This document shows positions 17,501 to 20,500 of a DNA stretch of 64,000 bases, in pieces. Positions within the stretch are counted from its first letter, which is position 1. Each line of letters begins with the position of its first letter. The DNA comes from Escherichia coli (GTDB lineage: Bacteria > Pseudomonadota > Gammaproteobacteria > Enterobacterales > Enterobacteriaceae): assembly GCF_003991155.1 (NCBI RefSeq), contig NZ_CP031293.1, one strand, 5' to 3'. Made by a program: the position numbers.

Positions 17501-20500
17501 CAGCAAAACCGCCTTTAAATTCTGCATGGGATACTGCTGGTATCGCCAATACAGAAGAGAGTGTCAGAGTAAAAAGATGTTTTTTCATAGCATAATTCCC
17601 TATGCCGATCGTTATTAGTTGATTGCTTAATAAAAAGGTTGATTAAAAGCGGCTTATTGTTAATGCAATGGAAAGGAGAGTACCAATACAGTTTTTTCCG
17701 CCTATTAATAGTGAAAAAATATAAATATATCGATATCGAATAACTATCGGATACATGAAAAAAGTGTATTGGTATGAGGTAGGGCAATCTCGTTATAAAA
17801 AGGCGTTAGATTCCACCCTACAAAAAAAGGATATATATGTATCAGGCTCAGTTTTCTCATAACCCACTGTATTGCGTAGATATTATCAAGACTTATAAAC
17901 CTGATTTCACGCCACGAGTGGCCTTTATTTTAGGTTCCGGGCTGGGCGCGCTGGCCGATCAGATTGAGAACGCGGTCGCAATTTCCTACGAAAAGCTGCC
18001 TGGGTTCCCGGTAAGTACCGTACATGGCCATGCGGGTGAGCTGGTGCTGGGTTATCTCCAGGGGGTGCCAGTGGCGTGCATGAAAGGTCGCGGACATTTC
18101 TACGAAGGTCGTGGGATGACCATCATGACGGATGCAATCCGTACCTTTAAGTTGCTGGGCTGCGAGTTGCTGTTCTGCACTAATGCGGCTGGCTCACTGC
18201 GTCCTGAAGTGGGGGCCGGCAGTCTGGTCGCATTGAAAGATCACATCAACACCATGCCGGGAACGCCGATGGTGGGTCTTAATGATGAACGTTTTGGTGA
18301 GCGCTTCTTCTCGCTGGCGAATGCCTACGATGCGGAATACCGCGCACTGTTACAAAAAGTGGCGAAAGAAGAGGGGTTCCCTCTGACGGAGGGCGTGTTC
18401 GTCTCATATCCGGGGCCGAATTTCGAGACTGCGGCGGAAATTCGCATGATGCAAATTATTGGTGGGGATGTTGTTGGTATGTCTGTGGTGCCTGAGGTTA
18501 TTTCAGCTCGCCATTGCGAACTTAAAGTCGTTGCGGTCTCTGCGATTACCAACATGGCGGAAGGTCTGAGTGACGTGAAGCTTTCTCATGCCCAAACGCT
18601 GGCAGCAGCGGAACTCTCAAAGCAAAACTTTATTAATCTTATTTGCGGCTTTCTGCGCAAAATTGCCTGAGTAAAACAACAATAAACGGCCTCACTGAGT
18701 GAGGCCATATGATGCGACAAGGAAACGATTATGAGCATCGCTTTGCGCTTAAAGGTAATGTCCTTTTTGCAATATTTTATCTGGGGGAGCTGGCTGGTTA
18801 CCCTCGGTTCTTACATGATTAATACCCTTCATTTCACCGGCGCTAATGTTGGCATGGTTTACAGTTCCAAAGGGATCGCCGCGATTATTATGCCTGGTAT
18901 AATGGGGATCATCGCAGACAAATGGCTGCGTGCAGAACGTGCATACATGCTGTGTCACCTGGTGTGTGCGGGCGTACTTTTTTATGCGGCATCCGTAACT
19001 GATCCGGATATGATGTTTTGGGTGATGTTAGTCAATGCGATGGCGTTTATGCCGACTATTGCGTTATCGAACAGCGTCTCTTATTCCTGTCTTGCCCAGG
19101 CAGGGCTTGACCCGGTGACCGCTTTCCCGCCCATTCGCGTTTTTGGTACGGTGGGGTTCATTGTCGCCATGTGGGCAGTAAGCCTGCTGCATCTGGAATT
19201 GAGTAGTCTGCAACTGTATATCGCGTCCGGTGCGTCATTGCTGCTGTCGGCTTATGCGCTGACTTTGCCGAAGATTCCGGTTGCGGAGAAAAAAGCGACT
19301 ACATCGCTTGCCAGCAAGCTGGGCCTGGATGCCTTCGTGCTGTTTAAAAATCCACGCATGGCTATCTTTTTCCTCTTCGCCATGATGCTGGGTGCGGTGC
19401 TGCAAATTACCAACGTTTTTGGCAACCCGTTCCTGCATGATTTCGCCCGTAATCCTGAGTTTGCTGATAGCTTCGTGGTGAAATACCCGTCCATTTTACT
19501 GTCAGTTTCACAGATGGCTGAAGTCGGTTTCATTCTGACGATACCGTTCTTTTTGAAGCGTTTCGGTATTAAAACCGTCATGCTGATGAGTATGGTGGCG
19601 TGGACGCTGCGCTTTGGCTTCTTTGCCTATGGCGACCCATCACCAACCGGGTTTATTTTGTTGCTGCTGTCGATGATTGTTTACGGTTGTGCATTCGATT
19701 TCTTCAATATTTCTGGTTCGGTCTTTGTCGAACAGGAAGTTGATTCCAGCATTCGTGCCAGCGCCCAGGGCCTTTTTATGACGATGGTAAATGGCGTCGG
19801 CGCATGGGTTGGCTCGATTCTGAGCGGTATGGCAGTGGATTACTTCTCGGTGGATGGCGTAAAAGATTGGCATACCATTTGGCTGATGTTTGCAGGGTAT
19901 GCTCTTTTCCTCGCAGTGATATTTTTCTTTGGGTTTAAATATAACCATGACCCTGAAAAGATAACGCATCGTTCAGTTACACATTAAAAGGATTCGCAGC
20001 TCTGTTCCTTGGGGCTGCTTTTATGATAAAGGTTAATTAGTGAAAGATATTTTATTTTCTTCTGGCGTTGGTTTTGGCATTGGTGCTTTGTTTACAATCG
20101 TGCGATTACCTATTCCTGTTCCAAATGTATTGCCGGGTATATTATCCATCGTGTTTATGTATGTCGGATATCTGGTGGTGAAATACTTTATGCCATGATA
20201 ATTTAATACGATATATTTTTTTATATGGAGCACTTAATTATGGAACGCGTATATAGAACAGATCTTAAGTTGCTCCGTTATTTTCTTGCCGTAGCGGAAG
20301 AGTTGCATTTTGGTCGCGCAGCAGCGCGTTTAAATATGTCTCAGCCTCCGCTCAGTATTCATATTAAAGAGCTGGAAAATCAACTCGGCACGCAGCTTTT
20401 TATTCGCCATTCGCGCAGCGTCGTACTGACACACGCGGGCAAAATCTTGATGGAAGAATCGCGTCGATTGCTGGTGAATGCAAATAATGTATTGGCTCGG

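What the first reader, a model, noticed from the sequence alone, without database searches (positions are those of the whole stretch)
20040..20198. Unlisted small membrane ORF between xapB and xapR (XapX-like)
A 52-codon GTG-initiated ORF with an AAGG RBS-like motif encodes a hydrophobic peptide, MKDILFSSGVGFGIGALFTIVRLPIPVPNVLPGILSIVFMYVGYLVVKYFMP, with two predicted TM segments. It falls below the 60-aa track cut-off. Its position right after the xanthosine permease gene suggests a small membrane protein in the xap operon, resembling what I recall of the XapX small-protein family.
Basis: partly seen in the sequence, partly recalled or inferred. Interest (0 to 1): 0.4.

Follow-up and report, generated by a model that had tools for sequence, protein, structure and literature searches.

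The report
Known small membrane gene xapX
The 52-codon reading frame between the xanthosine permease gene xapB and its regulator gene xapR in this E. coli window is a real, conserved gene for a tiny two-helix membrane protein of the catalogued XapX family; RefSeq already annotates it in most E. coli genomes, and its function is still unknown.

Summary
A GTG-initiated 52-codon ORF lies at 20040-20198 (+), 7 nt after an AAGG Shine-Dalgarno motif, between xapB and xapR of an E. coli window.

- **Family:** it scores 64.2 bits against NCBIfam TIGR03510 (XapX domain; cutoff 27.8). It has no Pfam DUF1427 hit.
- **Existing annotation:** RefSeq annotates it as 'DUF1427 family protein' (WP_000651752.1). 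The MG1655 reference record NC_000913.3 carries the intact ORF but no CDS.
- **Coding evidence:** orthologues in ten other taxa sit in the same slot, all with 52 codons. dN/dS is about 0.05-0.11 in this frame only. Two E. coli haplotypes differ at 7 of 159 bases, all synonymous.
- **Not obligatory:** orthologous xapA-xapB-xapR loci of E. albertii, C. freundii, C. koseri, K. huaxiensis, Enterobacter and Lelliottia lack it cleanly.
- **Wider family:** distant members have unrelated neighbours, and no solved structure or published function exists.

Most likely it is a two-helix inner-membrane hairpin made from read-through of xapAB transcripts. It may act as a dispensable helper of XapB, but that is inference only.

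Verdict: already known and ordinary, so low interest.

The parts
17837..18670 (+). xapA (xanthosine phosphorylase), first gene of the cassette
   Evidence: 277-aa ORF. RefSeq annotation of the 100%-identical SMS-3-5 locus.
18731..19987 (+). xapB (xanthosine:H+ symporter, NHS family of MFS), immediately upstream of the small ORF
   Evidence: 418-aa ORF. RefSeq annotation. Homologues carry Pfam Nuc_H_symport.
19996..20028 (+). Stem-loop (19996-20018, 9 pairs, 5-nt loop) followed by TTTTATGATA. It could be a partial terminator or an mRNA-stabilising hairpin between xapB and xapX.
   Evidence: Terminator-like hit, with dG -13.1 kcal/mol. The K-12 haplotype carries 4 substitutions in the stem that all keep pairing, by swapping wobble and Watson-Crick pairs. 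A hairpin at the same place but with unrelated sequence occurs in Phytobacter, Chimaeribacter, Citrobacter and Limnobaculum, and in xapX-less C. freundii and Klebsiella.
20029..20032 (+). Shine-Dalgarno-like AAGG, 7 nt before the start codon
   Evidence: Read from the sequence. A purine-rich AAGG/GGAG/GGGA motif lies at a similar distance in nearly all aligned orthologues; L. eriocheiris has only TTGAG there.
20040..20198 (+). xapX coding sequence (GTG start, 52 codons, TGA stop) for a small two-helix membrane protein of the XapX-domain family
   Evidence: ORF; TIGR03510, 64.2 bits; RefSeq CDS WP_000651752.1; conserved frame, dN/dS 0.05-0.11; helix-loop-helix model.
20190..20217 (+). Sigma-70 promoter-like site (ATGCCA-16 nt-TATATT) spanning the last codons of xapX and the spacer; a candidate promoter for xapR
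   Evidence: Consensus scan only (9 of 12 matches, and no more sites than in shuffled sequence). About 45 nt upstream of xapR looks, by eye, alike between loci with and without xapX. Not experimentally verified here.
20240..21124 (+). xapR (LysR-type activator of xapAB), 41 nt downstream of the xapX stop codon
   Evidence: RefSeq annotation transferred from SMS-3-5. GGAG lies 9 nt before the ATG.

Best explanation
This is xapX, a genuine protein-coding gene for a 52-residue inner-membrane protein. The protein has two hydrophobic helices (about residues 2-22 and 31-50) joined by a short proline-rich turn (R-L-P-I-P-V-P-N). It belongs to the XapX-domain family (TIGR03510).

It is most likely translated from xapA-promoter transcripts that read through the hairpin after xapB. 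That would make it xanthosine-inducible but produced at a lower level than XapA and XapB.

I think its most likely role is a non-essential accessory factor of the xanthosine uptake and catabolism module. The simplest version is a small partner that binds XapB in the membrane and tunes its stability or activity, as AcrZ, KdpF or MgtS do for their transporters.

Shown here: the gene is real, conserved, under purifying selection, tied in position to xapB, and a family member. Inferred: membrane insertion and topology, co-transcription with xapAB, and any interaction with XapB.
For: **The gene is real**
- The ORF, its start codon and its SD motif are in the sequence.
- All 11 orthologous loci aligned have 52 codons with ATG or GTG at the same position, nearly all preceded by an SD-like motif. 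Salmonella also has a 52-codon gene in the same slot.
- dN/dS is 0.05-0.11 with synonymous sites saturated. Variable columns by codon position are 20, 10 and 46 of 51. Four of the other five frames carry stops in every sequence; the fifth is open in the eight Enterobacteriaceae and Chimaeribacter sequences, but its dN/dS is 3.3.
- Two E. coli haplotypes differ at 7 of 159 bases, all synonymous (P about 6e-5 under neutrality), and carry the same protein accession.

**Family**
- TIGR03510 scores 64.2 bits against a cutoff of 27.8. All 39 diverse relatives tested also match it.
- Relatives share the signature G-x3-G-x2-F ... [KR]-L-P-x-P-A-P ... G.

**Membrane hairpin**
- GRAVY is 1.31 with only four charged residues. 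AF2 gives helix-loop-helix.

**Link to xap**
- Every member of the close subfamily found (69% identity or more; 13 loci in 10 genera and 3 families of Enterobacterales) lies directly after xapB.
- In Budviciaceae it is followed by deoC rather than xapR, so it sits inside the catabolic gene string.
- In E. coli, xapAB, xapX and xapR are present in almost the same set of genomes: 4088, 4077 and 4088 of 5426.
- A 47%-identical relative lies between nupC and deoB-deoD in another enterobacterial MAG.
Against: - Six orthologous xapA-xapB-xapR loci (E. albertii, C. freundii, C. koseri, K. huaxiensis, Enterobacter, Lelliottia) have only 67-100 bp between xapB and xapR and no trace of xapX. They are scattered over the XapB tree. 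XapB therefore does not need XapX.
- Distant family members sit next to unrelated genes: an FMN reductase, a CsoR-like repressor, a phosphoribosyltransferase and phage-like genes. The family as a whole is not tied to nucleosides.
- A hairpin with a U-run lies between xapB and xapX, so co-transcription is unproven.
- A fused XapB-linker-XapX AlphaFold2 model failed (mean pLDDT 52; the XapX part about 32). It gives no support for an interaction.
- I found no ribosome-profiling, proteomic or genetic evidence in the searchable literature.
Confidence: 0.33

Rival explanations
1. XapX is a real small membrane protein whose job has nothing specific to do with xanthosine. It could be a self-associating glycine-zipper hairpin with a general membrane role, inherited passively with the xap cassette and easily lost.
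For: - Distant family members occur alone beside unrelated genes.
- xapX has been lost repeatedly while xapA-xapB-xapR stayed intact.
- Small-x3-small motifs are conserved in both helices.
- Some relatives have weak sub-threshold Pfam hits to SpoVAB and to a LydA-type holin.
Against: - Every copy of the close subfamily that was found sits in the xap slot.
- Strong purifying selection persists inside the cassette.
- The xap-linked subfamily has replaced two family glycines in helix 2 (S36 and F39 in place of G), which suggests a specialised surface.
- A second relative lies beside nupC and deoBD.
Confidence: 0.3
2. The ORF matters mainly as a translated leader for xapR. On this view, ribosomes on xapX set how much xapR is transcribed or translated, and the peptide itself is unimportant.
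For: - The ORF ends 41 nt before xapR.
- The only promoter-like site on this strand overlaps its last codons.
- An in-vitro sigma-54 RNA polymerase binding peak is reported in the xapB/xapR spacer of K-12 (PMC8743547).
Against: - The amino-acid sequence, not just the open frame, is conserved (dN/dS 0.05-0.11).
- The protein belongs to a widespread family.
- In Budviciaceae deoC separates it from xapR.
- xapR orthologues do without it in six taxa, with what looks like the same proximal upstream sequence.
Confidence: 0.05
3. It is a type I toxin-like hydrophobic peptide (Hok/Ldr/TisB style) kept silent by an antisense RNA.
For: The size and hydrophobicity resemble membrane-targeting toxins. Some relatives have weak holin-family hits.
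Against: - No Rfam family and no antisense promoter-like site in the region.
- The gene is almost always single-copy per genome, in fixed synteny with a metabolic operon.
- The antisense 66-aa frame is broken in other genera.
- The gene has a normal SD and no long folded 5' leader.
Confidence: 0.03
4. It is a chance ORF in an AT-rich spacer and is not a gene.
For: It is short, has a non-ATG start, and is not annotated in the MG1655 reference record.
Against: All of the conservation, selection and family evidence.
Confidence: 0.02

Closest known systems
NCBIfam TIGR03510, XapX domain (the family named after this very gene position)
   Same: Matches the full length of the model (positions 2-48 of 49) at 64.2 bits. 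About 50 aa, two hydrophobic helices, central LPxPxP turn, located between xapB and xapR.
   Different: Nothing differs; it is a member. The family has no known function, no solved structure and no literature beyond annotation labels.
Pfam PF07235, DUF1427 (the name RefSeq gives the protein)
   Same: 33 of 39 XapX-domain relatives give weak hits to the first ~50 positions of the 84-position DUF1427 profile. The XapX domain therefore corresponds to the N-terminal part of DUF1427.
   Different: This protein gives no DUF1427 hit even at E<=10. It has 52 residues rather than about 85-90, so it lacks the C-terminal extension. DUF1427 proper was described from plant-associated Proteobacteria (PMC554113).
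Small accessory membrane proteins of transporters in E. coli (AcrZ-AcrB, KdpF-KdpABC, MgtS-MgtA, CydX-CydAB); from general knowledge of the field
   Same: Fewer than about 55 aa, hydrophobic, encoded next to or regulated with a transporter gene, and dispensable for basal transporter function.
   Different: Those partners are single-helix proteins with demonstrated binding. XapX is a two-helix hairpin with no interaction data, and its transporter gene occurs without it in many relatives. This is an analogy only, not homology.

Membership tests
NCBIfam TIGR03510 (XapX domain) | HMM score above the curated cutoff over the full domain | tested here: met
   64.2 bits against cutoff 27.8; E 5.8e-18; protein residues 4-50 on profile positions 2-48 of 49.
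NCBIfam TIGR03510 (XapX domain) | About 50 residues, two hydrophobic helices separated by a conserved [KR]-L-P-x-P-x-P turn | tested here: met
   In the alignment of 39 members, G11, G15, F18, P24 and P26 are at least 90% conserved, and P28 and G43 are invariant. AF2 gives helices 2-22 and 31-50. GRAVY 1.31.
NCBIfam TIGR03510 (XapX domain) | Namesake position between xapB and xapR | tested here: met
Pfam PF07235 (DUF1427) | HMM score at or above the gathering threshold (27.1 bits) | tested here: not met
   No hit at E<=10. Relatives reach only sub-threshold scores, for example 21.3 and 23.9 bits.
Pfam PF07235 (DUF1427) | Full-length match to the 84-position profile (proteins of about 90 aa) | tested here: not met
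   The protein has 52 aa. Related hits cover only profile positions 3-52.
Small accessory subunit of a transporter (functional class, e.g. AcrZ-like) | Physical association with the transporter | not testable with these tools
   The only proxy, a fused XapB-linker-XapX AF2 model, was too poor to read (pLDDT 52; XapX part about 32).
Small accessory subunit of a transporter (functional class, e.g. AcrZ-like) | Consistent co-occurrence with the transporter gene | tested here: inconclusive
   xapX always follows xapB (13 of 13 loci), and the two are co-present in E. coli. However, six orthologous xapB loci lack xapX.
Small accessory subunit of a transporter (functional class, e.g. AcrZ-like) | Co-transcription or co-regulation with the transporter gene | tested here: inconclusive
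   Same strand, 52-nt spacer, and no promoter-like site between them. But a conserved hairpin with a U-run lies in the spacer. No transcript data are available.
Type I toxin-antitoxin (Hok/Ldr-like) | Antisense or overlapping regulatory RNA, and known family signatures | tested here: not met
   No Rfam match. No minus-strand promoter-like site in the region. No toxin family hit in NCBIfam or Pfam for this protein.

The most novel reading that the evidence does not exclude
XapX is a dedicated small-protein partner of the XapB nucleoside:H+ symporter. It would be induced with XapB by xanthosine and would bind it in the membrane to adjust its stability or transport rate. That would make it the first small-protein modulator described for an NHS-family MFS transporter, and one that several lineages have discarded. 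It would also give the uncharacterised XapX/DUF1427 domain its first function.
Probability: 0.25. Interest if true: 0.45.

Novelty: already known. Interest (0 to 1): 0.15.

Why it matters
The practical value is small.

- **Annotation gap:** the gene is real and conserved, yet missing from the MG1655 reference record NC_000913.3. The intact ORF lies at complement(2522518..2522676). K-12-based omics analyses and knockout collections that follow that annotation will overlook it.
- **Open function:** no member of the XapX/DUF1427 domain family has an assigned function. The E. coli copy sits in a simple, inducible and genetically tractable system (xanthosine, XapR, xapAB), which makes it a convenient entry point.
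- **Natural comparisons:** the presence/absence pattern among otherwise orthologous xap loci offers ready-made comparisons for testing what the protein contributes.

Tried and rejected
- **Pfam scan of the protein:** no DUF1427 or any other hit at E<=10, so the RefSeq name rests on something other than the Pfam threshold.
- **Literature:** searches for XapX, 'XapX domain', DUF1427 and xapB + 'small protein' gave only annotation labels and one 2005 domain census. Seeger et al. 1995, the original xap paper, is not held. Supplements of E. coli small-ORF ribosome-profiling papers were either not held or contained no xapB, xapR, coordinate or peptide match.
- **Solved structures:** the PDB sequence-profile search gave only E=1 hits to phage coat proteins. 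Foldseek of the monomer model against the PDB gave only generic helical hairpins at E>8.
- **Rfam:** nothing relevant in 19800-20400.
- **AlphaFold2 of a XapB-(GGGGS)6-XapX fusion with a 30-row alignment:** mean pLDDT 52, with the XapX segment about 32, so it cannot be read. The tool reports no contacts in any case.
- **Recurrent partner search:** gene neighbourhoods of distant family members showed no shared neighbour.
- **Antisense 66-aa ORF (20033-20233, minus strand):** rejected, because it is interrupted by stops in 9 of the 12 aligned sequences.
- **Sigma-54 promoter idea from gSELEX:** reading the sequence by eye, I saw no TGGCAC-N5-TTGC-like motif near the xapX 3' end. I did not pursue it further.

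Full report
**1. What is in the sequence**

Positions 20040-20198 (+) hold a GTG-initiated ORF of 52 sense codons ending in TGA. An in-frame TAA two codons upstream rules out a longer frame. AAGG (20029-20032) lies 7 nt before the GTG.

The neighbours are yfeN (minus strand), xapA (17837-18670), xapB (18731-19987), then the ORF, xapR (20240-21124), a tRNA cluster and gltX. The window is E. coli: the 801 bases around the ORF are 100% identical to many E. coli chromosomes, including SMS-3-5.

**2. Is it already annotated?**

Yes, in most places. RefSeq annotates a CDS at this spot as 'DUF1427 family protein', WP_000651752.1, in SMS-3-5 and in a K-12-like strain. Every full-length hit listed carries that label; 4077 of 5426 complete E. 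coli genomes hold the sequence. The exact protein sequence is in public protein databases on at least 1000 contigs, under the names 'DUF1427 family protein' or 'XapX domain'.

The exception is the curated MG1655 reference record. NC_000913.3 lists nothing between xapR (2521593-2522477) and xapB (2522729-2523985), although the intact ORF is there at complement(2522518..2522676).

**3. Is it a real gene?**

A scan of one genome per species found the ORF in 10 further Enterobacterales genomes, always directly after xapB: Escherichia sp., Pseudocitrobacter, Entomohabitans, Phytobacter, two Chimaeribacter, Citrobacter sp., two Limnobaculum and Pragia. A Salmonella lineage has it too.

Those ten loci and the K-12-like E. 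coli locus all have exactly 52 codons, ATG or GTG at the same position, and nearly all a purine-rich SD 6-10 nt upstream. The Salmonella gene is also 52 codons with an ATG start.

Selection evidence:
- Nei-Gojobori dN/dS against the window is 0.05-0.11, with synonymous sites saturated.
- Variable alignment columns by codon position are 20, 10 and 46 of 51.
- Four of the other five frames carry stops in every sequence. The fifth (+2) is open in the eight Enterobacteriaceae and Chimaeribacter sequences and broken in the other four, and its dN/dS is 3.3. Across the five frames dN/dS is 0.26-5.

Within E. coli there are two haplotypes about 93% identical in DNA. They differ at 7 of the 159 ORF bases, all synonymous, and give the same protein accession. 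The chance of 7 of 7 being synonymous under neutrality is about 6e-5.

The overlapping antisense 66-aa ORF is broken in 9 of the 12 aligned sequences.

**4. Which family?**

NCBIfam TIGR03510 (XapX domain) matches residues 4-50 at 64.2 bits, against a curated cutoff of 27.8. Pfam gives no hit at all for this protein, DUF1427 included.

A profile search of 1.84 billion representative proteins found only 77 clusters at E<=0.001. Most are proteins of 48-60 aa.

An alignment of 39 diverse members shows the family signature: G11-x3-G15-x2-F18, then [KR]-L-P24-x-P26-A-P28, then a glycine-rich second helix ending in an invariant G43. All 39 match TIGR03510. Of these, 33 give weak hits to the first ~50 positions of the 84-position DUF1427 profile. 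The XapX domain therefore corresponds to the N-terminal part of DUF1427.

The xap-linked subfamily differs from the rest in helix 2, with S36 and F39 where the family has glycines.

No solved structure is related by sequence. AlphaFold2 predicts helix 2-22, loop 23-30 and helix 31-50 at modest confidence (pLDDT 69). Foldseek finds only generic hairpins. The peptide has GRAVY 1.31 and four charged residues. I found no paper describing a function.

**5. How tightly is it tied to the xap system?**

For a link:
- Every member of the close subfamily found sits after xapB.
- In Limnobaculum and Pragia a deoC gene follows it before xapR, so it lies inside the catabolic gene string.
- In E. coli the whole cassette is present or absent together. 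xapAB is in 4088 genomes, xapX in 4077 and xapR in 4088 of 5426. Genomes without it, such as O157:H7 and B strains, carry a FlxA-like gene there instead.
- A 47%-identical relative lies between nupC/yjdM and deoB-deoD in an uncultured enterobacterial genome.

Against an obligatory link:
- Orthologous xapA-xapB-xapR loci in the same chromosomal place have only 67-100 bp between xapB and xapR and no xapX remnant. This holds for C. freundii, K. huaxiensis, an Enterobacter, E. albertii, C. koseri and Lelliottia.
- On a neighbour-joining tree of XapB these loci fall in about four separate places among xapX-bearing loci. That implies repeated loss, although the tree has no support values.
- Distant family members have unrelated neighbours: an FMN reductase with a 4-nt overlap, a CsoR-like repressor, a phosphoribosyltransferase and phage-like genes.

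**6. Expression signals**

A 9-bp stem-loop (19996-20018) followed by TTTTATGATA lies between the xapB stop and the xapX SD. Between the two E. coli haplotypes the hairpin has accumulated six changes, four of them in the stem. Every stem change preserves pairing.

Hairpins of unrelated sequence occupy the same place in other genera, with or without a U-run, including loci that lack xapX. So the hairpin belongs to xapB's 3' end, either as a partial terminator or as an mRNA stabiliser.

No promoter-like site lies between it and xapX. The only plus-strand candidate (20190-20217) overlaps the last xapX codons and would serve xapR. The ~45 nt before xapR looks alike, by eye, in loci with and without xapX. 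xapR is reported to be constitutive (PMC7205307, citing Jorgensen and Dandanell).

The simplest reading is that xapX is expressed by read-through from the xanthosine-induced xapA promoter. This is an inference; I had no transcript data.

**7. Mechanism**

- **Shown:** a real, conserved small hydrophobic protein of the XapX family, positionally locked to xapB but dispensable in many lineages.
- **Inferred (about one in three):** a helper of the xanthosine module, most simply a XapB-binding modulator analogous to AcrZ, KdpF or MgtS.
- **Nearly as likely:** an autonomous small membrane protein merely carried with the cassette.
- **Unlikely:** a leader ORF for xapR, a type I toxin, or a chance ORF (see the rival explanations).

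My one attempt to probe an interaction was an AlphaFold2 model of a XapB-linker-XapX fusion. It gave an unusable model (pLDDT 52).

**8. Verdict**

However, the feature is a catalogued family member that standard pipelines already annotate, and its function is unknown. The only points of mild interest are its absence from the MG1655 reference annotation, its patchy distribution among orthologous xap operons, and the fact that it is a tractable entry point to an uncharacterised domain family. Interest is low.

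Noticed in passing
window 17837-20198 (xapA-xapB-xapX): E. coli genomes fall into two deep haplotypes here. About 2400-2565 genomes are only 90-95% identical to the window, against about 96% for xapR, yet the XapX protein is identical in both haplotypes. This suggests an old recombination or import event in the cassette.
   Followed up: partly
window 16824-21124 (yfeN to xapR): About 25% of complete E. coli genomes, including O157:H7 and B-derived strains, lack xapA-xapB-xapX-xapR. In three that I looked at, the whole stretch between yfeR and the tRNA cluster, yfeN included, is replaced by a FlxA-like gene.
   Followed up: partly
L003 (E. coli FDAARGOS_944) 3289-4080: An IS1 element replaces xapA, xapB and the first two-thirds of xapX, leaving only about the last 40 nt of the ORF and xapR.
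   Followed up: no
L004 = NC_000913.3 2522518-2522676 (minus strand): The MG1655 reference record has the intact 52-codon ORF but no CDS annotated between xapR and xapB.
   Followed up: yes
L006 (Pseudocitrobacter vendiensis) 1788-6081: Its yfeN-xapA-xapB-xapX-xapR cassette is 93-97% identical in protein to E. coli's, much closer than other genera. This suggests recent horizontal exchange.
   Followed up: no
L012, L013, L014 (Limnobaculum, Pragia) about 5150-6030: A deoC-like gene sits between xapX and xapR. In L012 it is split into two overlapping ORFs. In L014 xapB stops at 192 aa and xapR aligns in two pieces, while xapX stays intact. These could be sequencing errors or decay of the locus.
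   Followed up: no
L017 4379-8332 (uncultured Enterobacterales MAG): A 47%-identical XapX-like gene (start near 5001) lies between nupC/yjdM and an unknown 133-aa ORF, followed by deoB and deoD. This is a second nucleoside-related neighbourhood for the family.
   Followed up: partly
window 19996-20018: The hairpin after xapB differs between the E. coli haplotypes at six positions, four of them in the stem. All stem changes keep base pairing by swapping wobble and Watson-Crick pairs.
   Followed up: partly
window 20033-20233 (minus strand): A 66-aa antisense ORF overlaps xapX. It is open in Escherichia but interrupted by stops in 9 of the 12 aligned sequences, so it is probably spurious.
   Followed up: yes
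window 21176-21651: Several short ORFs with the repeated peptide 'GRAPPLQGGGRRFDPVITH' (and its antisense 'MMTGSNRRPPPCKGGALPAELITH') are translations of the tRNA-Val/tRNA-Lys cluster annotated in the identical SMS-3-5 locus. They are not genes.
   Followed up: no
K-12 xapB/xapR spacer (literature): A genomic SELEX study lists a sigma-54 RNA polymerase binding peak in the xapB/xapR spacer (PMC8743547). By my own coordinate conversion it falls near the 3' end of xapX. I saw no obvious -24/-12 motif by eye.
   Followed up: no
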